Assembly: GCA_964540825.1 (NCBI GenBank)
Contig: CAZINT010000001.1
Coordinates: 348,565 to 412,564, forward strand
Length of the DNA stretch: 64,000 nt
Source of the DNA: an uncultured Gammaproteobacteria bacterium
GTDB lineage: Bacteria > Patescibacteriota > Patescibacteriia > Magasanikbacterales > GWA2-37-8
Direction: 5' to 3'
Shown here: in pieces, positions 3,915-45,296 of the stretch
How positions within the stretch are numbered: position 1 is the stretch's first letter
How the letters are laid out: every line of letters starts with the position of its first letter
Notes under the pieces: model-generated
What the model was told of the DNA's origin: nothing
The model's database searches: none
The model's input: only the letters and a program-made list of their open reading frames with translations
Translations under genes and position numbers: made by a program

Positions 3915-3927
3915 AGAATGATACTGT

Positions 3928-16835: not shown

Positions 16836-16841
16836 ACTCGG

Positions 16842-16914
16842 TGGGTCGGCCGGGGCTCGAACCCGGGACCTTATCCTTAAAAGGGATCTGCTCTACCAGC
16901 TGAGCTACCGACCC
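16842..16914 (-). tRNA. tRNA-Lys (anticodon UUU)
   Basis: Manual fold: acceptor GGGTCGG/CCGACCC, D-arm GCTC/GAGC, anticodon loop CTTTTAA, T-arm CCGGG-TTCGAGC-CCCGG; 73 nt. Confidence 0.8.
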
Positions 16915-29169: not shown

Positions 29170-29240
29170 TCGGGGATCGTCTAAAGGTAGGACAGCAGCC
29201 TTTGAAGCTGTTTATCTAGGTTCGATTCCAACCAGTGGAT
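29170..29240 (+). pseudogene. degenerate tRNA-Gln-like copy (intact 5' half incl. anticodon loop CTTTGAA; T-stem and 3' acceptor strand do not pair)
   Basis: TCGGGGA-TC-GTCT-AAAGGTA-GGAC-A-GCAGC-CTTTGAA-GCTGT-TTAT-CTAGG-TTCGATT-CCAAC-CAGTGGA; same architecture as 29274-29347 but 3' half unpaired. Confidence 0.3.
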
Positions 29241-29273: not shown

Positions 29274-29347
29274 TCGGAGTTCGTCTAACGGCAGGACAGC
29301 GCCCTTTGAAGGCGCTTATCCAGGTTCGAATCCTGGACTCCGAACCA
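29274..29347 (+). tRNA. tRNA-Gln (anticodon UUG), CCA encoded
   Basis: Manual fold: acceptor TCGGAGT/ACTCCGA, D-arm GTCT/GGAC, anticodon stem GCGCC/GGCGC loop CTTTGAA, T-arm CCAGG-TTCGAAT-CCTGG, then ACCA. Confidence 0.8.
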
Positions 29348-29463: not shown

Positions 29464-29802
29464 ATGGCACTTGAGACTTTCCTGCTGACTAGTTCAGACG
29501 GAAAGGTAGAGCGCCTAAACCTAATCTGCCAAGGTATGGGGTCAGCTGGGAATTTTCTAAGGATTTTTTATATGTCTAATTGTATGAGGCTATACCACGA
29601 TCGTTTTAACTCAAACGGAATTATGTACGGCCAAGAGAAGCCGGTTCGTTGGGGTCGGGTGGTCCTGTTTATAGCGGTGTTAATTGCTGTGCTCTACGGC
29701 GCGCGTTTAATTCAAAATTATCGAGCCCTTAAAACTATATGCAAACAACAACCTGCGGACATGACGTGTCAGGTGACGATGCGCGAAACGTTGGCAATAT
29801 GA
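29464..29802 (+). CDS. hypothetical protein (weak)
   Basis: 112-aa ORF between tRNA-Gln and phage genes; C-terminal TM; may be non-coding. Confidence 0.25.
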   Translation: MALETFLLTSSDGKVERLNLICQGMGSAGNFLRIFYMSNCMRLYHDRFNSNGIMYGQEKPVRWGRVVLFIAVLIAVLYGARLIQNYRALKTICKQQPADMTCQVTMRETLAI

Positions 29803-29864
29803 CTTGTTGTGCAGGATGCCAGGATCGTCACCGTGACAGCTTAGAAGAATAAAATTATTTTCTT

Positions 29865-30152
29865 ATGCAGCTTATAAAAATAGATGGGACAACTACTGAG
29901 GTCGAGCCGCAAAATGGTAAAAAGTTTTCCCTTGATGAGCTTCGAGGCTATGTCGGAGGAACTATCGATACGGTCAGGCTTCCCAAAAGCGGTAAGTACA
30001 TGATCGTAAATGATAATGGCAAGCTGGACGGCCTGCCAAAAAATGAAAGGGCTACTGAAATCTGGAAAAAGGAATTTCCGATCAGTGAGTATCCGCACAA
30101 TAATGACGAATTGATTGTGGGGGATGTGCTGATGGGATCTCTCCAAGAATAG
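29865..30152 (+). CDS. DUF3846-like phage protein
   Basis: N-terminal pattern 'MQLIKIDGTTTEVEPQ..SLDELRGYVGGTIDTV' typical of DUF3846. Confidence 0.45.
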   Translation: MQLIKIDGTTTEVEPQNGKKFSLDELRGYVGGTIDTVRLPKSGKYMIVNDNGKLDGLPKNERATEIWKKEFPISEYPHNNDELIVGDVLMGSLQE

Positions 30153-30209
30153 AATTTAAAAACCCGCCTGCGTTCGAGCGCAAAGCGGATTTAATCAGAA
30201 ACAACATTT

Positions 30210-31022
30210 ATGTCTACAAAGAAAGATACCTCATTGGTGAAGACCGGTCAAGAAGGTCTAAGCCAAGAACAAATCGCTCTTATTACGCGCACTATTGCCA
30301 AGGGAGCCTCACCAGACGAATTACAGCTCTTTATTGGCCAATGCAACCGGACTGGCCTCGACCCCTTCTCGCGTCAAATTTATGCGATCAAACGCTGGGA
30401 TAGTCGTGAACAACGAGAAGTAATGGGCATTCAAGCAAGCATTGATGGTCTACGTTTGGTAGCTGAACGAACAGGTAAGTATGCTGGTCAAACACCGGTT
30501 GAGTGGTGTGGTAGTGATGGACAGTGGGTAGACGTATGGCTTAAAGAAGGACCACCAGTTGCAGCAAAAGTCGGCGTACTTCGCAAAGACTTTTCCGAAC
30601 CGTTAGTGGCTGTAGCAAAGTATAGAAGCTACGTTCAGACCTTCAAAAATAAACAAACCGGAAAATTTGAACCATCGAGCTTCTGGCAGAAAATGCCTGA
30701 ACTTATGCTCGGCAAGGTGGCGGAAGCATTGGCTTTAAGAAAAGCATTCCCTCAAGAACTGAGCGGACTTTATACAACCGAAGAAATGTCCAACGCCGAC
30801 GAGCAGCAATTTAAGGAACCTCCAAAAAAACCAGAAACCAAAGAAGAAGCCGCAGTTGAAGGTGAAGTGGTAGGAGAAAAAAAAGAAGTAACTGGTACAC
30901 CGCCTAACGAATCTGAATGTACTAACTGTGCAAAATTGATTACACCGGCAGAAATTGGTTTTTCTAAAAGACGCTACGGCAAAGCACTTTGTCGTGAATG
31001 TCAGAAAGGAGCACAAGTATGA
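30210..31022 (+). CDS. recT: RecT-family single-strand annealing recombinase with C-terminal zinc ribbon
   Basis: '[23 protein letters not shown]' RecT signature region; C-terminal CxxC..CxxC. Confidence 0.7.
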
Positions 31023-31849
31023 GCGAATCCTCCACTCCAGTAGTAACTAAACTCTATAAAGGCAAAGTTACAGTTGAGTTTTTTGACGAATGGCTCAATC
31101 CAGAAACAAAACGAATTAACACGCATGTTTATTTGGTGAATGGCAAACGTTGCCCAATTTCCGTTACTAAGGTAACCGGAAAACTCGATAAATCAGATGT
31201 ACTGAAAAAATGGGCCGTTGACCAAGCTAAAGACTACCTGCTCGAGTTGATCGAAAGTGGTGCTGCCGTAACAAGTGAGGACGTTCTTGAAGCCGCAAAA
31301 CAGCACACGATCAGACTCGCTAAAGCTGCTACGAGCGGTACGTTAGTTCACGAATGGGCTGAGCAATACATCAAGGGTCAAAACCCACCCATGCCAGAGG
31401 AAGACAATGTTACTAATGGAGTCATGGCATTTCTTGACTGGGTCAAGGAGTACGATGTGCGATTCATTGCCAGTGAAAAACTTGTCTACAGTAAAAAACA
31501 CGGCGTTGTTGGGCTTATGGATTGTAAATTTACCATGGGGCGCGAAGACCACAAGATCATTCACGCTGGGGATTTTAAAACAAGCTCAGGTATTTACACT
31601 GAAATGCGTTACCAAGTTAGCGGCTACCAGGCGATGGACGAAGAAGAAAGTGGCTGCGTCTATGGTGATAAATGGATCATGCGATTTGCTAAGGACGATA
31701 AGTACGACAAAAAAACTGGAGTACTCATTGAAAAAGCCGGTACCTTCGAAGCAAAAATGTTCCCTAGAGAAGAACACGAAAAGGACTTTGCCGCCTTCCT
31801 TGGCCTTTTAGCCGTAACAAAAAGAGAAGACGAATTACACGCTAAATAA
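31019..31849 (+). CDS. PD-(D/E)XK family nuclease (probable exonuclease partner of RecT)
   Basis: ATGA overlap with recT stop; '[17 protein letters not shown]' D..(D/E)xK-like motifs; position after RecT. Confidence 0.45.
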
Positions 31850-31864
31850 CTATTAAATTCTACT

Positions 31865-32107
31865 ATGGAAAACACAAAAAAGACCTTAACACCCTTCGAA
31901 CGCCTAGTTGATTTTATTGAGCACTACGAAAGCGATACTTTCTCGGCTGATAAAAGAGAAGTAACACACAAAGAAGCTGAAGTTATAGCCGAGCGCTTAA
32001 TTGTAGAAATGATTGAGGATGAGATTGATGGTGTTACGCTTAGTGGCATTCTTCTCGATCTTCGACCCGAAGAGAGCGACGAAGACGACGAAGAGCAAGA
32101 ACAGTAA
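31865..32107 (+). CDS. hypothetical acidic small protein
   Basis: 80-aa ORF with acidic DE-rich tail. Confidence 0.4.
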   Translation: MENTKKTLTPFERLVDFIEHYESDTFSADKREVTHKEAEVIAERLIVEMIEDEIDGVTLSGILLDLRPEESDEDDEEQEQ

Positions 32108-32286
32108 AAATTTTAGCTTGCCTGTCCGGTGTTCGCGGTCGTTGGAGAAGCGAACACCGGCAGGATTGGCCAGAATTGTTTACGAGCTAATTTTCGGGCT
32201 GGGAAAGCATGGGTATCGTAGCGGCGTAAGTTGCTAAGGTGCACATCCAGCCTTGAAGTTAACTCATAAACATAAGTGCTTTCCTT

Positions 32287-33171
32287 ATGACAAAAGACAA
32301 GCTGTACTTCCCGCACGACAGTAATGCCCGGCAAGATCCCAAGATTGTCGCGTTGATCAGTAAATACAAAATGGAGGGGTATGCGTGGTGGTGGATCATT
32401 ATCGAGACACTCCGCGAACAGGAAAACTATCGCCTGGACCTTTCTCAAGAATACAACCTTTATGCGATCGCATTGCAAACGCAAAGCGAAAAAGAACGCA
32501 TAAAACAGTTCTTAAAAGACTGTATTACGGAGTTTCAGCTCCTAAAAACAGATAAAAAAGAAAAATTTATTTGGAGTGAGTCGCTGTTGAACCGTATGAA
32601 GCACAAAGACGAAAAGTCTCAAAAAGCCCGAGAATCAGCGCAAAAACGATGGGGGCAAGTACCTAGCGAAGGCAATGCGAACGCATTACCGACGCAGAGC
32701 GAACGCAATGCTAAAAAAGGAAATAAAGAAAACAAAGATATTGTTGTAGCTAACGCCACTAAAGGTTCAATAAAAATTAACGACGCACTTATGCCATTAG
32801 AAGAAGTTACTTACGAGGCTGAAAATAACCCGAGTGGCAAAACCAAGTATGGGCGAAAAACGATGATGCTCTTCGCACGCTGTTACCTTGAGGCAGCCGG
32901 TATACAGCTTGAGCCGGGTGCAATATACGACGCAAATAAAATCAGCCCGGGATTATCAAAACTCTACAAGCAGCTCAAAGACCCGGACCGGGTACTCGAT
33001 GGGTTAAGGATCGCTGGCCGGTACTTCGGAAGCAAGGGGCTCGATTGGACACCTATCACGGTTTGGAAGAATTGGGAAAAAATCTGGCAATGGCACAAGG
33101 ACGGTGAAAAAACAGATAGAAACGGTGTTGCCGCACGCCACCAGGACGTGGCAGAAAGGAGGGCGCTATGA
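32287..33171 (+). CDS. phage replication initiation/replisome organiser protein (DUF4373 Lin1244-like N-terminal domain)
   Basis: 'YFPHDSNARQDPKIVALISKYKMEGYAWWWIIIE' matches DUF4373 pattern; directly upstream of DnaB. Confidence 0.5.
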   Translation: MTKDKLYFPHDSNARQDPKIVALISKYKMEGYAWWWIIIETLREQENYRLDLSQEYNLYAIALQTQSEKERIKQFLKDCITEFQLLKTDKKEKFIWSESLLNRMKHKDEKSQKARESAQKRWGQVPSEGNANALPTQSERNAKKGNKENKDIVVANATKGSIKINDALMPLEEVTYEAENNPSGKTKYGRKTMMLFARCYLEAAGIQLEPGAIYDANKISPGLSKLYKQLKDPDRVLDGLRIAGRYFGSKGLDWTPITVWKNWEKIWQWHKDGEKTDRNGVAARHQDVAERRAL

Positions 33172-34514
33172 GCAAACATGAAAATCACTACGACGAAACA
33201 ATGGAGCGCTCAGTCCTCGGATCGCTGCTCCTCGACAAAGAAGCAATCTACAAAGTTTTAGACGCACTCGAACCGGCAGACTTCTATTTTGAAAAACATC
33301 AAACCATTTACCGGGTACTTCTCGAACTGTTCAAAGCTGGTCGGGAAATTGACATGGTGCTTATTGGTCAGGAATTAGAAGCGCAGCAGTTGGTAAAAAG
33401 AATTGGCGGTTATGCTTATCTCGCTGAGCTCACCAACGCCGTCGCTACTTCCTCAAACATTGAGCACTACGCCGAAATCGTCAAAAGCCATTCCATTCGT
33501 CGCCAGCTGCTCGAAGCGCAACAAAAGAACCTTTCGATCATAGCTGACCATGAAAAAGACATTGGCACCGTCCTCGCTGAGACGCAGGGCAATATCGTTA
33601 AAATCAACGCGATCAATAAAACGGATGATTCGATCAAAGCTATTCTCCGCGAACTCGAAGAAGCTCAGGAGGCCTATTCTGTCAGGCGTGAGAATGGGCA
33701 GCAGTACATCGGCTACCGCTCCGGTATCGACAAAATTGACCAGCATATCGACGGCATCCGTCCCGGGCATATCTGGGTAGTCGGTGGCTGGACCTCAACC
33801 GGCAAAACGCAGTTTGCGCTCAATATAGTCAACAGCCTGCTCGAGCAGAGCGTGCCAACGGCAATTATCAGCCTCGAAATGAGCCGGGTGGATACCCTGG
33901 CCCGTCTGATAGGTATCAGGACCAATATGAGCTCTATGGCTGTCATTAAGGGTCGGAATGACGTTCAATCCGCGCACCAAATCGAGAGCTCCAAAGACTT
34001 CTTTCACCGCTCCCCGCTGTACGTCCACACCACTTTCTTTGACATCGAAAAAATAAAAATGTTGATCCGTAAGGACGTTTACACGTTGGGCGTGAAGTTT
34101 GTTTTGGTGGACTACGTTCAGAACATCATTAGCGAAGAGAAAGCCATGCGTGAGTATGATCTGCTCACTCAATCGGCCGTGGCGCTCCAGGCAATTGCTC
34201 GTGAGCTTGGAATCACCATCTACATTGTTTCTCAGATCAGTAACGAAAGCGAAAAGGGCAATGGCGCTGGCGCTGGGTTCAAAGGAACAGGTGCGCTCGA
34301 AGCAGTTGCTGACCTCGCCATTCGTCTTGAGAGAGATCGCAAAAAGGAAGGAGCTGACGACCTGTATGTGCCGGTAAAAATAACGATCTTTAAAAATCGC
34401 CATGGCTACACTGGCAAAATTGATAGCTACTGTATGTGGCTGAAAAGTGGAAAGTATGACGACTCGGTCATTTACATTCCACCGGAGGCACGGAGCAAAT
34501 ATGTCAGAAGTTAG
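33168..34514 (+). CDS. dnaB: replicative DNA helicase (DnaB family), phage-encoded
   Basis: N-terminal domain 'ERSVLGSLLLD', Walker A 'GGWTSTGKTQFALN', RecA-like core motifs; 448 aa. Confidence 0.8.
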   Translation: MSKHENHYDETMERSVLGSLLLDKEAIYKVLDALEPADFYFEKHQTIYRVLLELFKAGREIDMVLIGQELEAQQLVKRIGGYAYLAELTNAVATSSNIEHYAEIVKSHSIRRQLLEAQQKNLSIIADHEKDIGTVLAETQGNIVKINAINKTDDSIKAILRELEEAQEAYSVRRENGQQYIGYRSGIDKIDQHIDGIRPGHIWVVGGWTSTGKTQFALNIVNSLLEQSVPTAIISLEMSRVDTLARLIGIRTNMSSMAVIKGRNDVQSAHQIESSKDFFHRSPLYVHTTFFDIEKIKMLIRKDVYTLGVKFVLVDYVQNIISEEKAMREYDLLTQSAVALQAIARELGITIYIVSQISNESEKGNGAGAGFKGTGALEAVADLAIRLERDRKKEGADDLYVPVKITIFKNRHGYTGKIDSYCMWLKSGKYDDSVIYIPPEARSKYVRS

Positions 34515-34740
34515 AGTATTCAGATTGCATTATTGTTCTCGATGCCACGGCAAGTATCAAAACAATGTAACGGTCTTTCACGACCCCACTAATCCCTATG
34601 AACCTATCAAATACACCGATTACGACTGTCCTTGCGGCTTCTCCTACCACTTCAAACCTCGAGCAGGTGGCCGAAATAATTCCTCGGACCAAGCTCGGTC
34701 GAGCAGTGGTAGGGAAAATGATCAACTGTCGCTTCTGTAA
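34501..34740 (+). CDS. small Cys-rich (zinc-binding-like) protein, translationally coupled to dnaB (weak)
   Basis: ATG overlaps dnaB stop; 'CSRCHG..CPCG' motif; C-terminal part low complexity. Confidence 0.2.
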   Translation: MSEVRVFRLHYCSRCHGKYQNNVTVFHDPTNPYEPIKYTDYDCPCGFSYHFKPRAGGRNNSSDQARSSSGRENDQLSLL

Positions 34741-34843
34741 AGGACAAGCCAGGATCTACTTGGAAGCTCGTCAGTATCGGGTGAACTGTGCCACGTGTGG
34801 TGATGATACATATTTAAAAAATTATAATCATCCTTCTTTATGA
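34719..34843 (+). CDS. small zinc-ribbon protein (weak)
   Basis: 'MINCRFCKGQARIYLEARQYRVNCATCGDD'; two CxxC pairs. Confidence 0.2.
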
Positions 34844-35355
34844 GCGCTCCTGAAACAATTCAAAAGCGCTGGCGCGAAATGATGCAGGCTAAACTCGCCA
34901 ACGTAAAAAATATTAAGCAACTAGAGGGCTCTGACCCCAACGTAAAGCGCATTATGGAGACACTCAGGAGTTTTTACCAGCACAAAATTGACGTAGTACC
35001 TGTGCCAGAGCTGACCAATACCGGAGGGCACCTTCTCGGACACTACGTGAGTGTGGCAACGACTTCTTCAATAAAACGCGCCGAGCGTGATGCGGCCGAG
35101 CAGTGCTACGAAGAAATACTCTCATCCCTGACTTTAATGAATCGTAATGATGAAGTTGGTGTTACGGAAGCTCGATCAATGGCCAAAGAGCAAATGGGTG
35201 AATTTGCCACGGAGATTGTTTGGCGCGAGCAGCACAAAAACGCCTACGAAGCGATTGTGGATAGTACGGAAAAAACCATCTCATTTATCCAAAGCATCAT
35301 TAAAACCAAATTAAACGAGCGAGCAAGTGGAAAGCTTGCTGATGAAACAACTTGA
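34840..35355 (+). CDS. hypothetical phage protein
   Basis: 171-aa ORF, predicted helical. Confidence 0.4.
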   Translation: MSAPETIQKRWREMMQAKLANVKNIKQLEGSDPNVKRIMETLRSFYQHKIDVVPVPELTNTGGHLLGHYVSVATTSSIKRAERDAAEQCYEEILSSLTLMNRNDEVGVTEARSMAKEQMGEFATEIVWREQHKNAYEAIVDSTEKTISFIQSIIKTKLNERASGKLADETT

Positions 35356-35725
35356 TATGTTGAAACTTAGTGAGGGAACAAAAAATAAGTTATTGGCAGA
35401 TTCGTATATGGAACGTTGCGCCGCTTGCGGTAAAACTGGGACTCAGTGGCACCATGTGATGTTCTGGGGTCGGCAGCTGGACTTATGGTGGGCCATCGTC
35501 CCGGCTTGTCCCGAGTGCCATAAGCTCGTTGATACGAATAAGTCCATTGATGAGGATGGAAACGTAATGCGCGAGTTATTTCAGTGGGTGGCAATTCTTC
35601 GAATGCCGCTCAAAATGAAAGCGCAGTACCGAAAGTATGATTGGGATTTTGAACGACGTCGGCTTGATCGAAAATTTGTTGAAAACTATTGGTTTATAGC
35701 TTTAAAAATTCAGCATCATTATTAA
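35327..35725 (+). CDS. hypothetical Cys/His-rich protein (possible HNH-like or zinc finger)
   Basis: 'CAACGKTGTQWHHV..CPECH'. Confidence 0.3.
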   Translation: MESLLMKQLDMLKLSEGTKNKLLADSYMERCAACGKTGTQWHHVMFWGRQLDLWWAIVPACPECHKLVDTNKSIDEDGNVMRELFQWVAILRMPLKMKAQYRKYDWDFERRRLDRKFVENYWFIALKIQHHY

Positions 35726-35915
35726 CTAAACAAAGGGGTATGAATTTTTTAAAAAAGGTAAAACGCACGTTGGGTCTGCTTGCTACTTGTCGGGTCTGCG
35801 GCAATGAGTGTAAAAACATGGTCGATAAAATCAGACGTCAACAGATCGTTAAGTATTGCCAAAAGATCTGCCGGTTACGACGGCACAACTCAACTATTTA
35901 ATTATAATTTTTAAT

Positions 35916-37283
35916 ATGCAGCAACAAAAAATCAAAGTGGTGGAAGCGTACGAATCAAAAACTAACCCACGTGGAAATAATTTTAAAGGCCAAGCATTTA
36001 AAGATTTAGTGGCGAGCATAAAAGAAAAAGGCGTTCTTGTTCCCGTCCTCGCTCGTTTAACTGGATCAATTGGAAAAGAACCTCATATAGAAATTATTGC
36101 TGGTTCTCGTCGTTTCCGAGCGGCTAAAGCGGTAGGGCTTGAAGAGATCCCGGCATACATTGTGGAAATGACTGATGACGAAGCGCGGGAGGCTCAGATT
36201 ATCGAAAATTTGCAGCGTCAGGACGTACATCCGCTTGAGGAAGCTGAGGCCTATAGCCACATGATCAAAACGACAGCAGATATTAAAGCCGTAGCCGCTA
36301 AAGTCGGCAAAAGCGAATCATACATCCACAACCGGATTATGCTTTGTAACTTAGCCGAGGAAGTCAAACAGGCTTATCGGGAAGGTGAAGTCAACGACGG
36401 ACATGCTGTGGAGATAGCACGCCTTTCCCCGGGCGGCGATCAACAAAAAACACTTACCCACATAAAACAGGAAACATCCTTTGGCCGGTCCCTACCAGTT
36501 AGACTGCTTAGTACATGGATTGAAATCACGTTTTTTAATGAGCTCGCTTTTCAACCCTGGCTCAAAGATAAAGAAGCGATGGCGGCTGTGGGGCTCTGCA
36601 AAGAGTGTCCACCCGAAACTAATACTCTATTTGGAGAAGTAAAGGAAGGAGCTTGTAGCACCACCCGTTGCCACAAACGCAAGATGCAAAAATATATTCA
36701 GTGGATGAAAGAGAAAACGCCTGGCTTGATACTGGTGAGTACTGAATACGGCAGCCGTCCCGGGATGATCAGTGAGTACGATTATGAGTTGGTCGCTAAA
36801 GGCACAAAGAATTCAAAACCAGGGCTCATTGTCCATGGCAAGAACCGGGGCAAGCTGATTACCGTCCTAGTAAAAAATCAGCCGGTGAATCAGATGACAC
36901 CTGAAGAAAAGGCGGCACACGAAAAAAAGATGAAACTCGAGCGTGAGGCTGAAAAGAAGAAACAGGAAGCCGAGACCACACGGGAAAATCGTAAAATGGA
37001 AGAAACCCTAAAAAATATTACCTGGCCTTTAAAAGAAAAACACCTTGCCCCCCTGTTTACCATACTGACGGAACATGCGGACGGTCTTGATGATATAGCA
37101 AAACGCCGGAAGCTTGAAGGCAAACGAGATGAGGAAGGCGATTACGAAAATGTCCATGAAACTATTAAAAATTGCTTTGGCGCATCTGACCCGCTGACTA
37201 AAATGCAGATGATCGTGGAAGTGGCGTTAATGCAAATGTGGTCTGGTAACGATCGAAGCCAGATGATGAAAAAGTTTAACTAA
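35916..37283 (+). CDS. ParB/Srx-domain nuclease-like protein
   Basis: ParB N-terminal box 'IEIIAGSRRFRAAKAVGLEEIPAYI', 'ENLQRQDVHPLEEAEA'; long C-terminal extension with Cys cluster and Lys/Glu-rich coil. Confidence 0.65.
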   Translation: MQQQKIKVVEAYESKTNPRGNNFKGQAFKDLVASIKEKGVLVPVLARLTGSIGKEPHIEIIAGSRRFRAAKAVGLEEIPAYIVEMTDDEAREAQIIENLQRQDVHPLEEAEAYSHMIKTTADIKAVAAKVGKSESYIHNRIMLCNLAEEVKQAYREGEVNDGHAVEIARLSPGGDQQKTLTHIKQETSFGRSLPVRLLSTWIEITFFNELAFQPWLKDKEAMAAVGLCKECPPETNTLFGEVKEGACSTTRCHKRKMQKYIQWMKEKTPGLILVSTEYGSRPGMISEYDYELVAKGTKNSKPGLIVHGKNRGKLITVLVKNQPVNQMTPEEKAAHEKKMKLEREAEKKKQEAETTRENRKMEETLKNITWPLKEKHLAPLFTILTEHADGLDDIAKRRKLEGKRDEEGDYENVHETIKNCFGASDPLTKMQMIVEVALMQMWSGNDRSQMMKKFN

Positions 37284-37300
37284 CTTATTTATATTTTCAT

Positions 37301-37732
37301 ATGGAGGCTACACCACAACAAAAAGCGGAGCGCGCTATGGAGATTTGTTCTGAGATCGAAGCGAAAAAACAGGAATTGGCTGATTTGTTTGAGGGGGGGG
37401 GCGTAGAGGAAAATATGATCGTTCCTAAAAAAAGGAAATATACCAAACATGTTAAAACTGAGGGTACAAAATCTGACAGTAAAACGATAAAAACGAATGG
37501 TGTTGTAAAAACGTGTTGTGGTTCTCGAGGATGGAAGCACAAATCCGACTGTTCGAATAAGCTGCCACCAGCTTTACGCGCTACCCAGGAAGCAATGACC
37601 GGGGGTGCGGAGGGTGATGGTAAGGAGCAAGAACTCCGTTGTGGTCAGTGTGAAGATCGATTTACCGGTGTGCTCCTGGACGCTGTTTGTCCGAGCTGCA
37701 ACTCAACGGATGTTTATAAAATGTATCTCTAG
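37301..37732 (+). CDS. hypothetical protein with C-terminal zinc ribbon; contains G9 homopolymer
   Basis: 'RCGQCED..CPSCNS'; G-run at 37393-37401 inside CDS. Confidence 0.4.
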   Translation: MEATPQQKAERAMEICSEIEAKKQELADLFEGGGVEENMIVPKKRKYTKHVKTEGTKSDSKTIKTNGVVKTCCGSRGWKHKSDCSNKLPPALRATQEAMTGGAEGDGKEQELRCGQCEDRFTGVLLDAVCPSCNSTDVYKMYL

Positions 37733-37735
37733 TAT

Positions 37736-37955
37736 GCAATGGCAAAGATTGATGCACTACAAATGCCCGAAGTGCGGCCTCGATCTTTATAAAGATGATC
37801 CGGGTGTTAACTGTTCCAGCATTAACACCCCTACACCATGCGGTTTCTTTATCAAGAAAGAACGGCTAGAAAAGATTAGGCAAGATATGGCGAAGCCAAA
37901 GTCAAGGTGTGGTGGAGTTTTCTTTAATTCAGGGCAGGGTCCCATTAAACAATAG
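37736..37955 (+). CDS. small zinc-ribbon protein
   Basis: 'YKCPKCGLDLY..CSSINTPTPCG'. Confidence 0.3.
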
Positions 37956-37958
37956 AGT

Positions 37959-38363
37959 ATGCAGTTGGAACATCAATTCTGTTCTCCCGAATTGTCAAAA
38001 CGATTAAAGGAATTGGGGGTGTCCCAAAGCAGTTTATTTTGGTGGGCAGAGAATCATGACGAGGAAATAGTATTGCTAGTTTATGAAACAGATGTTGGCT
38101 TTATTCTTCCCAGCGGCGGCGGTTTTGATCCTAGACTGCTTAATAATTGCCGGATGTTTTCAGCCTTCACCGTTGCTGAGCTGGGCTCAATTCTTTGGCA
38201 CAAAGCTTCACCAGAAAATATTCTAAAAGCATATGGAGTAGTGTTCAATGTTTCAGGTACGACGGTAATCACTGCCGAGGGTTTATCTCAATGCATGGAA
38301 AACCCTGAACTCGGTGCAAAAATGTTGATTTATTTGTTGGAAAATAAGCTGATAAATCTATGA
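37959..38363 (+). CDS. hypothetical phage protein
   Basis: 134-aa ORF. Confidence 0.4.
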   Translation: MQLEHQFCSPELSKRLKELGVSQSSLFWWAENHDEEIVLLVYETDVGFILPSGGGFDPRLLNNCRMFSAFTVAELGSILWHKASPENILKAYGVVFNVSGTTVITAEGLSQCMENPELGAKMLIYLLENKLINL

Positions 38364-39156: not shown

Positions 39157-39924
39157 ATGCGATTTCACTCTCAAAACTTAAATGAATTGCCGGGAGATAA
39201 GTACGGTCCGATGTGGCGTGAAGGAAGGTGCTGGTTTTACTTCACAGATCGTACAAAGCTCAATGTCGAGTGGAGCATTTTAAAAGGCTGGCGAACTGCG
39301 GCGGGTATTGATCTCGGTGAACACGACCACGCATTTATGCTTCACTTGTCCATTGTCAAACTGTTTTCTTTATACATTAGCTTCGATAATCCGTGGCTCA
39401 ATCGAATAGTAGAAAAATTCACTACAAGAAAAAATCAAGGTTATGGAAATGGTCGATCAATCGGAATTTCATTATGGCCGGAAGGAAGTATTCATGTAGA
39501 GCTGTGGAGTGATCCAACGGCATATAAATCTTCGGACCCTAAGTGGTGGAAGTTCACTATAGATTTTCCTAAGCTGCTGTTTGGTCGGCAGAATTGCACC
39601 ACAGAAACACTTGAGGAACGCGATGTGCTTGTGCCCATGCCAGAAAAAGCCTACCCAGCAAAAGCGAAGCTAGTCCTGTACACCTGGAAGCGTCCGCGCT
39701 GGTTCCCAAAATCGTTTACCCGGGTTGAAATAGATGTGCCCGGAGGAATACCAAAAGAAGGTAAAGGCGAAAATAGCTGGGACTGTGGCCGCGATGCAAC
39801 CTATGGAATAACGACCGGTTCTTGTAAGACCATTGCCGAGGGTGTAGGAGTTTTGGTCGGTAGCGTTCTACATGATCGCGTACGTCATGGTGGTTGGGAC
39901 GACTGGAACTGGCAAAAATCTTAA
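39157..39924 (+). CDS. hypothetical phage protein
   Basis: 255-aa ORF. Confidence 0.4.
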   Translation: MRFHSQNLNELPGDKYGPMWREGRCWFYFTDRTKLNVEWSILKGWRTAAGIDLGEHDHAFMLHLSIVKLFSLYISFDNPWLNRIVEKFTTRKNQGYGNGRSIGISLWPEGSIHVELWSDPTAYKSSDPKWWKFTIDFPKLLFGRQNCTTETLEERDVLVPMPEKAYPAKAKLVLYTWKRPRWFPKSFTRVEIDVPGGIPKEGKGENSWDCGRDATYGITTGSCKTIAEGVGVLVGSVLHDRVRHGGWDDWNWQKS

Positions 39925-39934
39925 TTTATTTTGT

Positions 39935-40306
39935 ATGTCTAGAACTAAAGATAGAAACACTCAAGAAGAACAAGAAAGGATTCTGGTACTCGCTGAAAGA
40001 GTGAAACTGATGTTTGGGTTTTGTGTTGATTTGATACCCGACCTTGATCTCTTAAAGCGGACTGTTGACGGAACTGCTGATCGATACTCTATGGCATTGT
40101 CGGCTGCACCAATCCTTGGAGCTTTTGGACAGGATTATGAGGAGATCGCTTTTAAAAATCAGCTTGAACATGAACGAGCCAAAGCCCTTTGCAATCTTAT
40201 AGAAACGCTAGACAGAACAGAAAAAGAAAGGCAAGAGTTTGTAAAAAATCAGGGAGTAAAAGCAAGAGGGCGAGCTGATATTGTTCGAATGTTAGGGCTA
40301 GGTTAA
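39935..40306 (+). CDS. hypothetical phage protein
   Basis: Start moved to ATG 39935 to avoid overlap. Confidence 0.35.
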   Translation: MSRTKDRNTQEEQERILVLAERVKLMFGFCVDLIPDLDLLKRTVDGTADRYSMALSAAPILGAFGQDYEEIAFKNQLEHERAKALCNLIETLDRTEKERQEFVKNQGVKARGRADIVRMLGLG

Positions 40307-40311
40307 AAAAT

Positions 40312-40382
40312 GATGGCGTGGTTTGGCAAAGGTAAGCACGCCCCCTCAAGGGGAGGTCCGGGCTCGAAACCCGGCGCCATCG
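40312..40382 (+). tRNA. tRNA-like element with anticodon-loop CCTCAAG (anticodon UCA, would read UGA); possible phage opal-suppressor or tRNA-derived structure
   Basis: Perfect 7-bp acceptor GATGGCG/CGCCATC, D-stem GTTT/AAGC, anticodon stem 4/5 bp, perfect T-arm CCGGG-CTCGAAA-CCCGG; but 2-nt variable region and C33 are atypical. Confidence 0.3.
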
Positions 40383-40402
40383 ACTTCTCTCAAGGAGCAG
40401 CA

Positions 40403-40669
40403 ATGAGACGAAGAAGACGCAAGTACTACGACGAGCATCACCTGTTTCCTAAGAGCCGTTTTCCACAACATCGGTCTGCTACCTGGAATAGACGGCCCAT
40501 GCGACGAAGCAGGCATACCGCCTGGCACCAGCTGGTTGATAATAAATCCCCGTTGGAAGCCCTGCTCGATTTGTTCTACGAGTTTACCCCGCACGATATT
40601 GATAAACTGCGGGATGATCCGGCGCTTGACGCGTTTCGTGCTCTCCTTGATCGACTGCCGTCGAAGTAA
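40403..40669 (+). CDS. HNH endonuclease (small, phage packaging-associated type)
   Basis: 'YDEHHLFPKSRF' HNH core then 'WNRRP..HTAWH'; position upstream of terminase genes. Confidence 0.45.
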   Translation: MRRRRRKYYDEHHLFPKSRFPQHRSATWNRRPMRRSRHTAWHQLVDNKSPLEALLDLFYEFTPHDIDKLRDDPALDAFRALLDRLPSK

Positions 40670-40719
40670 AAGAGTTTGTCCGTTCTCAGAGGGGGAAAAA
40701 CGGACACTATCTCTTTATT

Positions 40720-41691: not shown

Positions 41692-41898
41692 ATGAAAATT
41701 CTTGAGACATTGCACGAGATGATCAAAGCAAATCCTAAGATTCAGATACTCCGTGTTAACGAAGCACAAGCGCGAGAGTACCATCAGTATCTTGTCGAGT
41801 ACCACCTCAATACTCCGCCAGCCTTTGAGGAGATGAGCAGTAAAATGCAATATTTAGGACGTAAAATTGAAGTCTATGATGATACCAGCAACGGATAA
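41692..41898 (+). CDS. hypothetical small protein
   Basis: 68-aa ORF. Confidence 0.3.
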   Translation: MKILETLHEMIKANPKIQILRVNEAQAREYHQYLVEYHLNTPPAFEEMSSKMQYLGRKIEVYDDTSNG

Positions 41899-42145
41899 AA
41901 TTATCGTAAGAACAGAAAAAAAGGAAGAAACAACTGTTTCCGGAATAGTTTTGCCGGATTCGGTTGATCGCCAGATTCCAGGTAAGGGGAAGGTGGAGGC
42001 GGTAGCTGAAAATTTAAAGTATGTACCGGTTGGCAGCATCATTCATTTTGATCACTGGAAAGCGCACGAACTTGAGGAGAATCTTTTAGTCATCGATGTT
42101 AAAGATGTTCTAGTGTATGAGTCAGCAACCAGTCAAAAAGACTAG
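41867..42145 (+). CDS. groES: GroES-like co-chaperonin (cpn10), phage-encoded
   Basis: 'DKIIVRTEKKEETTVSGIVLPDS..KGKVEAV..VGSIIHF' aligns with GroES mobile-loop and roof regions; alternative start 41879. Confidence 0.6.
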   Translation: MKSMMIPATDKIIVRTEKKEETTVSGIVLPDSVDRQIPGKGKVEAVAENLKYVPVGSIIHFDHWKAHELEENLLVIDVKDVLVYESATSQKD

Positions 42146-42416: not shown

Positions 42417-42911
42417 ATGGAAAAAGTTTTGACGCCGGAGCAATGCTACGTTCCGCCCCATTCAACAATTTGCCGGAAAGTCGTCCAAAAAGATATTAAG
42501 CGAGTGATCAAGGACGGCCAGCTGATGTTTGAGCTCTGCACGGCACCAGTTGGGAACTACCGGAGAGCCTACGCCATCGCTCATTCACAAATTACCGATA
42601 AAGATCCGCTGCGCTTCTTCGTTACTAGCAGCCAGGCCGTTATCATAAACCCGGCCATTGTACGGAAGACCGAAGCTCTAAAACATGAGCTCGAAGGGTG
42701 CATGACTTTTCCGTTGGCCAAGCCTGTCCTGAAGGGTAGATCGTACCGCTGCGAGGTTGAGTACCAGACGATTGATCCGGACGGCAAACTGACCGAGGTC
42801 CGGGTCTGGCACCTGAAGGGAATTGAAGCGCGGATGATACAGCATGAGATTGATCACCTTAACGGAATTTATCTTTATCCCTTTGATGTATGGCAGAAGT
42901 TATCGACCTAG
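42417..42911 (+). CDS. def: peptide deformylase, phage-encoded
   Basis: Motif II 'EGCMTFP', motif III 'QHEIDHLNG', motif I-like 'YAIAHSQI'. Confidence 0.65.
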   Translation: MEKVLTPEQCYVPPHSTICRKVVQKDIKRVIKDGQLMFELCTAPVGNYRRAYAIAHSQITDKDPLRFFVTSSQAVIINPAIVRKTEALKHELEGCMTFPLAKPVLKGRSYRCEVEYQTIDPDGKLTEVRVWHLKGIEARMIQHEIDHLNGIYLYPFDVWQKLST

Positions 42912-43129: not shown

Positions 43130-43341
43130 AAATAATCGCTAAATCAGAGTTCTTGCCGAAACTGAATGAGCTGGGACAACAGGGATGGGAAATGTGTTTC
43201 GCGGTTCCCCTTGAGATAAATGTACTGGGAAATTTCACTACAACAAGGGAATGGCGATTCGAGTGCGTGCTGAAACGAGAGATCCCGAGGTTCGTGCTGC
43301 AATTCATCAATAAGCCGGACCCCTATGGCTCATCAGAATAA
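43105..43341 (+). CDS. DUF4177-like small protein
   Basis: 'FEYRIEII..LNELGQQGWEM' pattern. Confidence 0.4.
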   Translation: MPQFEYRIEIIAKSEFLPKLNELGQQGWEMCFAVPLEINVLGNFTTTREWRFECVLKREIPRFVLQFINKPDPYGSSE

Positions 43342-43906
43342 AACCAAGTTTAAAACTAAAAAGAAGCCGGTCGCTAAGAAGAAGACACTAGAGCTTGTAG
43401 TAATGCCTAACTGGCAGCCAGCACCTAAACATGCAGGAGGGCGACCTACTAAGTATCTACCGGAATATTGTGAGAGGATAATCAAATACTTTGATGTTCC
43501 GCCCTATGAGAGATTCGTTACCATGTTCGGTCCAAAGAACGTTGCAAATCCTTTACCAACACTCGCTGGATTCGCTGCCAGGATAGGAGTTGATGAAGAT
43601 ACGCTCGGTAATTGGTGTAAGGAATACCCGGAGTTTCTCGGTGCGGTAAGCAAGGCCAAGGCAATTCAGAAGCATATCCTAGTAACTAATGGCTTAATGG
43701 GCGGCTATAACAGCCGTTTTGCAACACTGGTGGCTACAAACTTTACTGATATGAAGATGCCAAGCAATGACGTGCCGCAGCTTCCGACCGCAGTGATCAA
43801 CGTTATTGAATTGCCAAAGCGCTATGCCCCAGCTATCGACGGACAACCCATCCTTAAACCAAAAGCAGGAGAGTACATTGACGCCGACGAAGTGGACTCC
43901 GCATGA
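43325..43906 (+). CDS. terminase small subunit
   Basis: 'GGRPTKYLPEYCERI..GFAARIGVDEDTLGNWCKEYPEFLGA' TerS HTH signature. Confidence 0.6.
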   Translation: MAHQNKTKFKTKKKPVAKKKTLELVVMPNWQPAPKHAGGRPTKYLPEYCERIIKYFDVPPYERFVTMFGPKNVANPLPTLAGFAARIGVDEDTLGNWCKEYPEFLGAVSKAKAIQKHILVTNGLMGGYNSRFATLVATNFTDMKMPSNDVPQLPTAVINVIELPKRYAPAIDGQPILKPKAGEYIDADEVDSA

Positions 43907-45296
43907 AGGGCCTCAAACTCTGGCACTAAGCATTGAAGTATACGAAATGCTTTATGGTGGTGCCAGAGGTGGAGGCAAGACAGAAGCCGGTATCATGTGG
44001 CTGATCTCTGACGATTACTATAAGAATGGTTTGTTTCGAGGTTTGGTCATCCGTAAGAACTTTACGGATTTAAGCGATTGGGTTGATCGTGCTGAGCGTA
44101 TCTATGTACCGCTCGGCGCTCGACGAGTCGGCGATAACTTTCACTTCCCCAGCGGCGCGAAGATTCTCACGGGCCACTTGAAAGACAAGAGTGCTTACGA
44201 AAAGTACCAGGGCCACGAGTACCAGCGCATGTTGATTGAGGAGTTAACGCATATTCCCCGGGAAGAAGATTATTTGAAGCTCATTGCCAGTTGTCGCTCT
44301 ACAGTACCAGGTTTAGTTGCTGCGATATTCGCCAGCGCGAACCCTACTGGCCGAGGACATACGTGGGTAAAGAAACGTTTTGTTAAAGGACCCGGAGTTC
44401 CAAAGTACCCGACTACGATTTTCAAAGATCCGGAGAGTGGTCGCACCAGAATATTTATCCCGGCTGACATTGAGGATAATCCGACGCTCATTAAAAACGA
44501 TCCAGGCTATGTTAATTTCCTAAACTCCCTTCCTGCTAAATTACGCAAGGCTTGGAGGCAAGGGAATTGGGATATTACTGACGGCCAGTTCTTTGAGGAA
44601 TGGCGACAAGATGTGCATGTCTGTGTTCCGTTCGATATTCCCAAAGAGTGGAAGCGGTTTATCTGTATGGACTACGGTTTTGCCAAACCGTCCGCTGTGT
44701 ACTGGTGTGCGGTTGATCCAAAGACTGGACGGGTTTACACCTACCGCGAGCTCTACGTTACCCAGCACACCTACGAAATGCTTGCTGAGGCAATCTGCCG
44801 GTTAACTCCTGCCGAGGAGCGTGATCTGATTGATTGGATGGTAGCTGATAGTTCGATAAAGGATAGTGGCCAAGAAACTGGCCGCACCGGTCTCGATATT
44901 ATGGAGACGACCTTTATTGAAAAGAATTGGATGCTTTCGATCCGCATGGCAACTAAGGGTCCGGGAAGCAGAAAGAATGGTTGGAACTTGGTTCGAAGCT
45001 ATCAACGCGTTCAGTATAGCGAGGAAGGCCTCCCGATTACACGCTGGCAAGTCTTTGATACTTGCGTGAAACTGATTGAGGTATGGCCGCAACAGATGTA
45101 TGACGATCTTGATCCTGAAGATTTGGACACCGATGGCGAGGACCATGCGCCTGACGCAATCCGGTACGGCTTACGCGCTCTCAATGAGCCGTGGGATCAG
45201 AAACCGAAGGAGCCGCCACCGCCACCATCAAACCCTGTACTGACTGATGACGAGCTTTACTATCGTATTGAAAAACAAAAAAAATATAGACGTTAA
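43806..45296 (+). CDS. terminase large subunit (ATPase plus RNase H-like nuclease)
   Basis: Walker A 'YGGARGGGKTEAG', C-terminal nuclease acidic residues; true start uncertain (in-frame TTG 43878 would cut the ~100-nt overlap with TerS). Confidence 0.75.
   Translation: MNCQSAMPQLSTDNPSLNQKQESTLTPTKWTPHEGPQTLALSIEVYEMLYGGARGGGKTEAGIMWLISDDYYKNGLFRGLVIRKNFTDLSDWVDRAERIYVPLGARRVGDNFHFPSGAKILTGHLKDKSAYEKYQGHEYQRMLIEELTHIPREEDYLKLIASCRSTVPGLVAAIFASANPTGRGHTWVKKRFVKGPGVPKYPTTIFKDPESGRTRIFIPADIEDNPTLIKNDPGYVNFLNSLPAKLRKAWRQGNWDITDGQFFEEWRQDVHVCVPFDIPKEWKRFICMDYGFAKPSAVYWCAVDPKTGRVYTYRELYVTQHTYEMLAEAICRLTPAEERDLIDWMVADSSIKDSGQETGRTGLDIMETTFIEKNWMLSIRMATKGPGSRKNGWNLVRSYQRVQYSEEGLPITRWQVFDTCVKLIEVWPQQMYDDLDPEDLDTDGEDHAPDAIRYGLRALNEPWDQKPKEPPPPPSNPVLTDDELYYRIEKQKKYRR

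What the first reader, a model, noticed from the sequence alone, without database searches (positions are those of the whole stretch)
40312..40382. Phage-borne tRNA-like element with UCA anticodon (would decode UGA) immediately upstream of the HNH and terminase genes
The element has a perfect 7-bp acceptor, a D-arm, a perfect 5-bp T-arm with a CTCGAAA loop, and a 7-nt anticodon loop CCTCAAG. However, the variable region is only 2 nt and position 33 is C, so it may be a non-canonical or decayed tRNA. Host genes in this window use TGA as stop. A phage-encoded opal suppressor would therefore imply stop-codon reassignment during infection, as reported for some phages of recoded hosts. Alternatively it could be an integration target or regulatory RNA for the late operon.
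Basis: seen in the sequence. Interest (0 to 1): 0.6.

Follow-up and report, generated by a model that had tools for sequence, protein, structure and literature searches.

The report
Broken tRNA gene beside mini-HNH gene
The element is a real tRNA-derived sequence in a prophage, but its anticodon arm is about four bases too short to read any codon, so it is most likely a crippled tRNA gene travelling with a small HNH-type nuclease gene, not a device for reassigning the UGA stop codon.

Summary
A tRNA covariance model built without the element, run unfiltered over the whole window, scores it 29.1 bits (E about 1e-6). The next background hit scores 9.5 bits. Rfam's tRNA model gives 28.5 bits against a cut-off of 29, but only when its speed filters are relaxed. 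Default ARAGORN and the default Rfam scan miss it.

It is intergenic. Twelve of 16 homologues of the downstream protein start at ATG 40403, so the annotated 118-aa ORF that runs through the element is over-extended.

The defect is confined to the anticodon arm. Both covariance models align it as a 4-bp stem with a 5-nt loop, four positions short. Three registers are possible: UCA, CUC, or no anticodon loop at all. All of them lack U33.

The prophage shows no in-frame TGA. An opal suppressor is therefore not supported.

The downstream gene belongs to an uncharacterised family of about 88-aa HNH-like proteins. tRNA-like genes turn up unusually often near its homologues, several with intact acceptor, D and T arms but abnormal anticodon arms.

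Best reading: a non-decoding tRNA relic or mimic inside a GC-rich tRNA-plus-HNH cassette. Interest is modest.

The parts
40312..40382 (+). tRNA-derived element, 71 nt, 66% GC
   Evidence: Custom tRNA model, filters off: 29.1 bits, E about 1e-6 window-wide, next background hit 9.5 bits. Rfam RF00005: 28.5 bits against a gathering score of 29. ARAGORN calls it only at relaxed thresholds. Its GC is in the top 0.1% of 71-nt windows in the prophage.
40312..40318 (+). Acceptor stem, 5' strand GATGGCG. It pairs perfectly with 40375-40381 (CGCCATC); the discriminator is G40382, followed by ACT rather than CCA.
   Evidence: Sequence; model alignments.
40321..40337 (+). D arm. The models' version is GU[uug]GC / GCAC.
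40339..40357 (+). Defective anticodon arm plus variable region, CGCCCCCTCAAGGGGAGGT. The models align CCCC/GGGG closing CUCAA, with positions 31, 32, 33 and 39 missing. The UCA triplet is at 40346-40348 and the CUC triplet at 40345-40347.
   Evidence: deletions in the alignment; ARAGORN gives CTC in bacterial mode and TCA in mitochondrial mode; the minimum-energy fold pairs CCCC/GGGG around UCAA.
40358..40374 (+). T arm, CCGGG-CTCGAAA-CCCGG. Five perfect pairs; loop has U55 C56 G57 A58 but C54.
40304..40306 (+). TAA stop of the upstream ORF (39872-40306). The element begins 5 nt later.
40392..40397 (+). AAGGAG Shine-Dalgarno sequence, 5 nt before ATG 40403. Strong Shine-Dalgarno sequences are rare in this prophage.
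40403..40669 (+). Small HNH-like gene (88 aa). Conserved motif D.HH.FP.S.FP...WN.R...RH.AWH.L.GN..P. The true start is here, not at 40310 or 40313.
   Evidence: 33 homologues. 12 of 16 start at the column of this Met. PHROG HNH hit E=3e-4; no Pfam hit. AlphaFold2 pLDDT 92.7 with a beta-beta-alpha core. Foldseek top hits are HNH domains, but at E about 1.
40307..40669 (+). GC-rich island (54% against a prophage mean of 46%) made up of the tRNA-like element and the HNH-like gene; a candidate mobile cassette.
   Evidence: top 1.1% of windows of the same length.
43325..45296 (+). Terminase small subunit (43325-43906) and large subunit (43806-45296). Given for context only; 2.9-3.4 kb downstream of the element.
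   Evidence: PF16677, PF03237.

Best explanation
The element is a tRNA gene that has lost its decoding end. The acceptor stem, D arm and T arm are intact. The anticodon arm plus variable region is 2-4 nt too short, with no U33 and no well-formed 7-nt loop closed by 5 pairs, so it cannot read UGA or any other codon.

It fills the 96-nt spacer between an upstream phage ORF and a small HNH-like gene. Together the element and that gene form a GC-rich island inside a prophage. That prophage lies next to a tRNA-Gln in a genome that uses the standard code and is probably patescibacterial.

Inferred mechanism (not shown):
- The tRNA gene and the mini-HNH gene travel together as a free-standing, homing-endonuclease-type cassette, as SegB does in the T4 tRNA cluster.
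- The lesion in the anticodon arm is either decay or a cleavage-resistant allele.
- The 12-bp acceptor/T-arm stack is the minimal substrate for RNase P and 3'-end processing. The transcript is therefore probably still cut here, releasing the HNH mRNA with its strong Shine-Dalgarno sequence.
For: Derived from a tRNA:
- Unfiltered custom model: 29.1 bits, E about 1e-6. It is the sixth hit in the window, and the next is 9.5 bits.
- RF00005: 28.5 bits.

Intergenic, not coding:
- Homologues of the downstream protein are 80-101 aa, and 12 of 16 begin at the Met encoded at 40403.
- GC at second codon positions of the supposed N-terminal extension is 0.65, against 0.36-0.45 in real genes.

Not a decoder:
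- Both models delete 4 positions in the anticodon stem-loop.
- The three registers disagree on the anticodon.
- No in-frame TGA occurs in the prophage.

Cassette and link with HNH:
- The element and the HNH-like gene form a GC island.
- In L147, a sub-threshold tRNA-Phe-like gene (23.5 bits) ends 10 nt before a homologue of the HNH-like gene, with AGGAGG in between.
- tRNA-like genes also lie near homologues in L138, L143 and L144. That is 5 hits in 38 kb, against 3 canonical tRNAs and no aberrant one in 94 kb of control phage loci.
- L143 and L144 are 97% identical up to a breakpoint 12 nt after the L143 tRNA-like gene.
- Precedent: the T4 SegB homing endonuclease sits in the phage tRNA cluster (PMC2330249, seen).
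Against: - Neither conservation nor covariation could be tested.
- The closest homologue of the HNH-like gene (64% identity, L135) has no tRNA-like neighbour. The pairing is therefore not obligatory.
- Nuclease activity of the HNH-like protein is not shown, and its fold matches are not significant.
- RNase P processing is inferred only.
- The cloverleaf is not the minimum-energy fold in a longer context, and folding energies are unremarkable (z = -1.4 for the element alone, -0.6 with flanks).
Confidence: 0.62

Rival explanations
1. A functional tRNA-like RNA without an anticodon. It would be kept for its acceptor/T-arm module and work as a processing signal, an mRNA 5'-end or stability element, or a decoy for tRNA-binding enzymes. 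It would belong to a recurrent class linked to the mini-HNH family.
For: - In four independent tRNA-like genes near HNH-like homologues, the acceptor, D and T arms are fully paired, and only the anticodon arm is remodelled into a tidy hairpin.
  - Window: 4 bp with a 5-nt loop.
  - L143: CGUGG/CCACG with a 3-nt loop.
  - L144: AGGGA/UCCCU with a 4-nt loop.
  - L138: a 7-bp stem with a 13-nt loop.
- Neutral decay would be expected to hit all arms.
- Four of the tRNA-like genes are followed within 10-20 nt by a strong Shine-Dalgarno sequence and a start codon.
- The best Rfam match after tRNA is the processed tRNA mimic mascRNA, at 23.8 bits.
Against: - The sample is small.
- The four anticodon-arm shapes differ from one another.
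- The sequences are not alignable as one family.
- There is no conservation or covariation data and no expression data.
- One partner (L147) has a normal Phe anticodon loop.
Confidence: 0.22
2. A working opal-suppressor tRNA (anticodon UCA) that reassigns or reads through UGA during infection.
For: - The UCA register gives a 7-nt loop with 4 of 5 stem pairs (in mitochondrial mode).
- Late phage genes have 0 TGA stops in 34, against 6 in 14 early genes and 7 in 51 late genes of three related phages.
- A related phage contig (L082) carries a solid tRNA with anticodon CUA, at 61.8 bits.
- A patescibacterial phage with tRNA-Gly-sup(UCA) has been described (PMC13059738).
Against: - It has C33 instead of the universal U33, a 2-nt variable region, a G.A mismatch in the stem and C54.
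- The covariance models prefer a different register.
- No in-frame TGA occurs anywhere in the prophage, and coding density is 94.6% in the standard code.
- TGA terminates early phage genes and host-like genes.
- TGA use in the host-like region (2 of 30) already explains the late-gene pattern.
- The acceptor stem lacks the Gly identity pairs.
Confidence: 0.04
3. The element is simply the 5' part of the coding sequence of a 118/119-aa protein, as in the public annotation, and its tRNA shape is coincidental.
For: - The ORF 40310-40669 is open and in frame, and the public record calls the 118-aa version.
- Most genes of this prophage lack a Shine-Dalgarno sequence and start after A/T-rich leaders like the one before 40310.
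Against: - 12 of 16 homologues start at the Met of 40403, and the few longer ones have unrelated N-termini.
- Second-codon-position GC of the extension is abnormal.
- The tRNA-model E-value is about 1e-6 for the whole window.
- A strong AAGGAG sits 5 nt before ATG 40403.
Confidence: 0.05
4. A chance GC-rich hairpin cluster, or another kind of structured RNA or site such as a terminator or an attachment site, with no tRNA ancestry.
For: - Default ARAGORN and the default Rfam scan miss it.
- Relaxed ARAGORN calls occur at 0.07-0.2 per 64 kb.
- Folding z-scores are weak.
Against: - There is a 20-bit gap above background in the unfiltered model scan.
- The primary-sequence hallmarks are present: U8, G10, GG in the D loop, G53-C61, U55 C56 R57 A58.
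- No T-run follows the T arm, so it is not an intrinsic terminator.
- It does not resemble the junction tRNA-Gln.
Confidence: 0.05

Closest known systems
Phage-encoded tRNA genes and their pseudogenes or fragments (tRNA fragments in prokaryotic mobile elements: bioRxiv 10.1101/2022.07.05.498093; the functional pseudo-tRNA 'tRNA-Other' of Bacillus cereus: PMC3399842; both seen)
   Same: It is tRNA-derived and lies in a mobile element or prophage. It scores well below canonical tRNAs (28-29 bits against 47-75) and is not usable for decoding.
   Different: It is not a truncated fragment. Both acceptor strands and the D and T arms are complete, and only the anticodon arm and variable region are shortened.
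Suppressor tRNAs of stop-codon-recoded phages (bioRxiv 10.1101/2021.08.26.457843) and the patescibacterial phage RSA-ATP1 tRNA-Gly-sup(UCA) (PMC13059738)
   Same: It is phage-borne, lies upstream of the late genes, and a UCA triplet can be placed at positions 34-36 in one register.
   Different: The cloverleaf is non-canonical: C33 and a 2-nt variable region. The phage has no in-frame TGA, and both host and phage use TGA as a stop.
Free-standing homing endonucleases inside phage tRNA gene clusters (T4 SegB, PMC2330249; T5 HNH enzymes from my own knowledge)
   Same: A small nuclease-type ORF lies directly next to a tRNA or tRNA-like gene. Presence varies among related phages, and a mosaic breakpoint lies at the tRNA-like gene.
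   Different: The protein here is an uncharacterised 88-aa HNH-like family with no separate DNA-binding domain and no shown activity. SegB is a GIY-YIG enzyme.
Processed tRNA mimics such as mascRNA (RF01684)
   Same: An acceptor/T-arm module with a stunted anticodon arm. This is the best non-tRNA Rfam match, at 23.8 bits.
   Different: mascRNA is a eukaryotic family. The score is far below its gathering score of 42.5, and processing was not tested here.

Membership tests
Canonical tRNA (Rfam RF00005 / ARAGORN) | Reaches the family's curated score or the program's default threshold | tested here: not met
   RF00005 gives 28.5 bits against a gathering score of 29, and only with relaxed filters. 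Default ARAGORN makes no call; at 95% thresholds it does. This is a narrow miss.
Canonical tRNA (Rfam RF00005 / ARAGORN) | 7-bp acceptor stem, 5-bp T stem, T loop with U55 C56 R57 A58, G53-C61, U8, GG in the D loop | tested here: met
   Sequence and model alignments. The one exception is C54 instead of T54.
Canonical tRNA (Rfam RF00005 / ARAGORN) | 5-bp anticodon stem closing a 7-nt loop with U33 and a purine at 37; variable region of at least 4 nt | tested here: not met
   The models delete positions 31, 32, 33 and 39. The UCA register has C33, a G.A mismatch and a 2-nt variable region. The CUC register has C33, two mismatches and a 3-nt variable region.
Phage suppressor tRNA / stop-codon recoding | In-frame copies of the reassigned stop codon in phage (late) genes | tested here: not met
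   All prophage ORFs are contiguous in the standard code, with 94.6% coding. No same-frame ORF pairs are split by TGA.
Phage suppressor tRNA / stop-codon recoding | Anticodon complementary to a stop codon in an otherwise functional tRNA | tested here: not met
   UCA is only one of three registers, and the tRNA body is defective.
Phage suppressor tRNA / stop-codon recoding | The reassigned codon is avoided as a terminator in the genes expressed together with the tRNA | tested here: inconclusive
   Late genes have 0 TGA stops in 34, early genes 6 in 14, and the host-like region 2 in 30. Related phages have 7 in 51 late genes.
HNH / His-Me finger nuclease (the neighbouring gene) | Sequence-profile match and a beta-beta-alpha-metal fold with conserved His/Asn | tested here: inconclusive
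   phrog_12434 E=3e-4. Pfam gives no HNH hit. The model has pLDDT 92.7 with strand-strand-helix. Foldseek top hits are Cas9, Gme and Cap5 HNH domains at E about 1. H12, H13, N29, H38 and H42 are invariant.
Free-standing homing endonuclease associated with phage tRNA genes | Recurrent adjacency to tRNA genes, and presence/absence variation among related genomes | tested here: met
   5 tRNA-like hits in 38 kb around homologues, against 3 canonical and 0 aberrant in 94 kb of control loci. L135 lacks one. L143 and L144 have a breakpoint at the tRNA-like gene. The sample is small.
Free-standing homing endonuclease associated with phage tRNA genes | Site-specific DNA cleavage of the endonuclease-free allele | not testable with these tools
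   This needs purified protein and target DNA.
attP or tRNA fragment at an integration junction | Identity to the 3' part of the host target tRNA, and an adjacent integrase | tested here: not met
   The element does not resemble tRNA-Gln or the other host tRNAs beyond general tRNA consensus. The flanking ORFs show no integrase domains.
mascRNA-type tRNA mimic (RF01684) | Reaches the gathering score | tested here: not met
   23.8 bits against 42.5.

The most novel reading that the evidence does not exclude
Uncultivated phages, probably of Patescibacteria, carry a class of tRNA-like genes. These keep a perfect acceptor/D/T core but replace the anticodon loop with a closed or oversized hairpin. 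They sit at mosaic junctions, directly in front of a strong ribosome-binding site, and often in front of a previously undescribed 88-aa HNH-like protein. On this reading they are functional partners of that protein rather than decaying tRNAs. They could be RNA-processing or expression signals, or cleavage-immune alleles created by the nuclease.
Probability: 0.2. Interest if true: 0.65.

Novelty: new member of a known kind. Interest (0 to 1): 0.3.

Why it matters
- It removes a false lead. This prophage does not recode UGA.
- It corrects an over-extended gene call. The public 118-aa ORF swallows a tRNA-derived element.
- It exposes a practical trap. The default speed filters of Rfam's cmscan, and ARAGORN's default threshold, both miss a tRNA-derived element that an unfiltered covariance model separates from background by 20 bits.
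- If the recurrent pairing of anticodon-defective tRNA-like genes with a mini-HNH family holds in a larger sample, there are two possibilities. It could be a new example of homing endonucleases shaping phage tRNA clusters, or a new use of the tRNA acceptor/T-arm module in phage gene expression.

Tried and rejected
Searches for sequence homologues of the element:
- An exact 25-mer in IMG/VR gave nothing.
- A degenerate T-arm plus acceptor pattern in JGI metagenomes gave one chance hit inside a CDS.
- blastn-short against all fetched loci gave nothing.

Searches for relatives of the surrounding genes:
- Large-terminase relatives in IMG/VR (80 loci, at most 50% identity) share none of the genes around the element.
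- Large-terminase relatives in GTDB species genomes gave only distant prophages, and the source genome is not a representative there.
- Closer relatives by large terminase (about 60% identity by tblastn, 62-63% in the protein search; L081-L085) share the deformylase, GroES, terminase and portal genes but not the 40.3-41.7 kb segment.
- The HNH-like family is absent from IMG/VR and from GenBank phages.

Other dead ends:
- A word-indexed protein search with the 119-aa ORF found only itself. The exhaustive HMMER search was needed to find the family.
- The Shine-Dalgarno argument for the start codon is weaker than it looks, because most genes in this prophage have no such sequence. The homologue N-termini settled the start instead.
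- A hairpin around the ribosome-binding site of the HNH-like gene is not significant.
- No promoter-like or terminator-like site lies next to the element.
- The minus-strand reading was rejected: the D-arm G.U pair becomes C.A, and there is no T loop.

Full report
**Observation**

- a perfect 7-bp acceptor stem;
- a 4-bp D stem (one G.U pair) with GG in the loop;
- a perfect 5-bp T stem with loop CTCGAAA;
- a possible 7-nt loop CCTCAAG with C at position 33;
- a 2-nt variable region.

Three things were not mentioned. The proposed anticodon stem has a G.A mismatch. Position 54 is C. Other registers are possible.

**Is it more than chance?**

The first tests were negative. Default ARAGORN found four tRNAs in the window (Lys 16840-16914 on the minus strand, Gly 21395, Thr 27307, Gln 29274) but not this element. 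Rfam at gathering thresholds agreed. An E-value scan of 201 nt listed only the tRNA mimic mascRNA, at 23.8 bits.

That turned out to be a filter effect. When only 86-96 nt were submitted, RF00005 matched 40312-40382 at 28.5 bits, half a bit under its gathering score of 29.

For an unbiased, window-wide test I built a covariance model from 16 canonical tRNAs, without the element, and ran it over all 64 kb with filters off:

| Hit | Bits |
|---|---|
| Four host tRNAs | 66-75 |
| Broken tRNA-Gln, 29170-29237 | 37 |
| The element | 29.1 (E about 1e-6) |
| Next background hit | 9.5 |

The element is therefore tRNA-derived.

ARAGORN calls it only at 95% thresholds, as tRNA-Glu(CTC). Such relaxed calls arise 0.07 times per 64 kb in random sequence and 0.2 times in real phage DNA. 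ARAGORN alone would not have been convincing.

Folding energy is unremarkable: z = -1.4 for the element alone and -0.6 with flanks.

**Coding or not?**

An ORF runs from ATG 40310 through the element into the downstream gene. The public record annotates the 118-aa version; in the 5.8-billion-cluster protein database this protein matched only itself. Most genes of this prophage have no Shine-Dalgarno sequence, so the AAGGAG before ATG 40403 is not decisive.

An exhaustive HMMER search found 33 relatives. They are 80-101 aa long, and 12 of 16 aligned members begin at the column of the Met encoded at 40403. The few longer members have unrelated N-termini. The supposed 31-aa extension has GC of 0.65 at second codon positions, against 0.36-0.45 in real genes here.

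The element is therefore intergenic. It begins 5 nt after the TAA of the upstream ORF and ends 20 nt before ATG 40403.

**What is wrong with it as a tRNA?**

Both covariance models align the anticodon arm as CCCC/GGGG closing CUCAA. Positions 31, 32, 33 and 39 are missing, CUC falls at positions 34-36, and AGG-U forms the variable region.

| Source | Anticodon | Defects |
|---|---|---|
| Both covariance models | none, or CUC by position | 4-bp stem, 5-nt loop, 4 positions deleted |
| ARAGORN, bacterial mode | CUC | two stem mismatches, 3-nt variable region |

(ARAGORN results are.) No register has U33. By established tRNA structure, the U33 turn, the 7-nt loop and a variable region of at least 4 nt are needed for decoding and for the L-shaped core. 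A decoding role is therefore very unlikely.

**Is UGA reassigned?**

No.
- Positions 1-29.3 kb carry cellular-type genes: DnaG, a Mur ligase, FtsE/FtsX.
- From about 29.4 kb onward the window is a prophage: RecT, DnaB, ParB, peptide deformylase, GroES, small and large terminase, and an SU10-type portal seen in relatives.
- Prophage ORFs are contiguous in the standard code, with 94.6% coding, and none is split by TGA.
- TGA ends 6 of 14 early genes, four of them in ATGA overlaps.
- TGA ends 0 of 34 late genes. This is lower than in three related phages (7 of 51) but close to the host-like region (2 of 30).

I record the late-gene avoidance as a curiosity, not as evidence for a suppressor.

**The neighbouring gene**

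The 88-aa product of 40403-40669 has no Pfam hit and a weak PHROG HNH hit (E=3e-4). Invariant residues are H12, H13, W28, N29, H38 and H42. The AlphaFold2 model has pLDDT 92.7 with a strand-strand-helix core. Its best PDB matches are all HNH domains (Cas9, Gme, Cap5) but at E about 1. 'HNH-like' is reasonable; 'HNH endonuclease' is unproven.

The element and this gene together form a GC island: 54% against 46% for the prophage, in the top 1.1% of windows. The element alone is 66% GC, in the top 0.1%.

**Comparative evidence**

No sequence homologue of the element exists in IMG/VR, in JGI metagenomes (one chance hit inside a CDS) or in any fetched locus. Phages related by large terminase (about 60% identity by tblastn, 62-63% in the protein search) share the late module but not the 40.3-41.7 kb segment. 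Some of them carry tRNAs: tRNA-Met just upstream of the small terminase gene in L083 and L084, and a tRNA with anticodon CUA in L082.

The informative comparison is around homologues of the HNH-like gene:

| Locus | Position | Bits | Anticodon arm and other features |
|---|---|---|---|
| L147 | 3920-3990 | 23.5 (RF00005) | normal Phe loop, short D arm, encoded ACCA; ends 10 nt before the homologue, AGGAGG in between |
| L138 | 1226-1307 | 57 | 7-bp stem, 13-nt loop |
| L143 | 3358-3429 | 48 | can fold as CGUGG/CCACG with a 3-nt loop |
| L144 | 303-371 | 41 | AGGGA/UCCCU with a 4-nt loop; missed by ARAGORN |
| L147 | 3114-3198 | 19.4 | long, class II-like |

The last four rows come from the unfiltered model scan of 38 kb around homologues. 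The same scan of 94 kb of control phage loci found only three canonical tRNAs, and nothing between 12 and 66 bits.

L143 and L144 are 97% identical up to a breakpoint 12 nt after the L143 tRNA-like gene, and they carry different tRNA-like genes beyond it.

Four of these tRNA-like genes, including the window's, are followed within 10-20 nt by a strong Shine-Dalgarno sequence and a start codon.

The closest homologue of the HNH-like gene (64% identity, L135) has no tRNA-like neighbour.

**Interpretation**

Shown:
- The element is tRNA-derived and intergenic.
- It has a defective anticodon arm.
- No UGA recoding occurs in the prophage.
- The downstream gene belongs to a small HNH-like family that is enriched for nearby tRNA-like genes, many of them with abnormal anticodon arms.

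Inferred:
- The tRNA gene and the mini-HNH gene form a mobile cassette of the free-standing homing-endonuclease type. The precedent is T4 SegB in the tRNA cluster (PMC2330249).
- The anticodon-arm lesion is decay or a cleavage-immune allele.
- The intact 12-bp acceptor/T-arm stack is still likely to be cut by RNase P and 3'-end processing enzymes (from established knowledge of minihelix substrates). That would separate the HNH mRNA from the upstream message.

Rivals:
- A functional anticodon-less tRNA mimic is the main rival (about 0.2). Lesions that spare every other arm favour it. It cannot be tested without more sequences or RNA data.
- A working opal suppressor, a coding N-terminal extension, and a chance match are each at about 0.05 or below.

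**Comparison with known systems**

The element fails the defining anticodon-loop features of a canonical tRNA and narrowly misses Rfam's cut-off. It fails the defining feature of phage stop-codon recoding, which is in-frame stops (bioRxiv 10.1101/2021.08.26.457843; and PMC13059738 for a genuine patescibacterial phage tRNA-Gly-sup(UCA)). It most resembles phage or mobile-element pseudo-tRNAs and tRNA fragments (bioRxiv 10.1101/2022.07.05.498093; PMC3399842), and it sits in a homing-endonuclease-like setting.

**Verdict**

The finding is real but ordinary in kind: a new member of a known kind. The exciting reading is not supported. A modestly interesting side observation, the recurrent pairing of mini-HNH genes with aberrant tRNA-like genes, deserves a larger survey.

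Noticed in passing
window 29170-29237 and 29274-29347: Two tRNA-Gln(UUG) copies lie in tandem at the left edge of the prophage. The first (37 bits with my model) has an intact 5' part through the T loop, but its T-stem and acceptor 3' strands have been replaced. The second is intact (70 bits; 61.9 bits with Rfam). This looks like integration into the host tRNA-Gln, with the phage supplying a complete replacement copy. No integrase lies next to it, so the right end is probably beyond 64 kb.
   Followed up: partly
window 38360-64000 compared with 29464-38363: None of 34 late-region genes ends in TGA (25 TAA, 9 TAG). Six of 14 early genes do, four of them in ATGA start/stop overlaps. Late genes of three related phages use TGA in 7 of 51 cases.
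   Followed up: partly
L082 645-717 (-): A related phage contig (large terminase 62% identical) carries a well-formed tRNA with anticodon CUA, which would make it an amber suppressor. It scores 61.8 bits with Rfam. The genes on that contig were called at normal lengths in the standard code. I did not check for in-frame TAG.
   Followed up: no
L143 3358-3429; L144 303-371; L138 1226-1307; L147 3114-3201 and 3920-3990: tRNA-like genes near homologues of the HNH-like protein have perfect acceptor, D and T arms but odd anticodon arms (a 3-nt, 4-nt or 13-nt loop) or a short D arm. The one in L144 is invisible to ARAGORN. Control phage DNA shows none.
   Followed up: partly
L144 200-302 and L147 3822-3919: Both tRNA-like genes are preceded by a similar leader. 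It consists of a small hairpin (AGCCTAA...TTAGGC) followed by a long hairpin whose base is CGCUG...CAGCG. Rfam reported the L147 copy as a spurious mir-550 match. Its function is unknown.
   Followed up: no
window 40310-40669: The public 118-aa gene call is probably over-extended by 30 codons at its 5' end. The family start is ATG 40403.
   Followed up: yes
window 41867-42145 and 42417-42911: The prophage carries a GroES-like co-chaperonin and a peptide deformylase just upstream of the terminase genes. Both are conserved in the related phages L081 and L082.
   Followed up: no
window 40677-40706: An 11-bp hairpin (TGTCCGTTCTC...GAAAAACGGACA) lies directly after the stop of the HNH-like gene. 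It may mark the 3' end of the GC-rich cassette.
   Followed up: no
window 40250-40450 compared with 40305-40390: Method note. Rfam cmscan in E-value mode missed a 28.5-bit tRNA match when given 201 nt and found it when given 86-96 nt. A negative result from filtered scans should not be read as rejection.
   Followed up: yes
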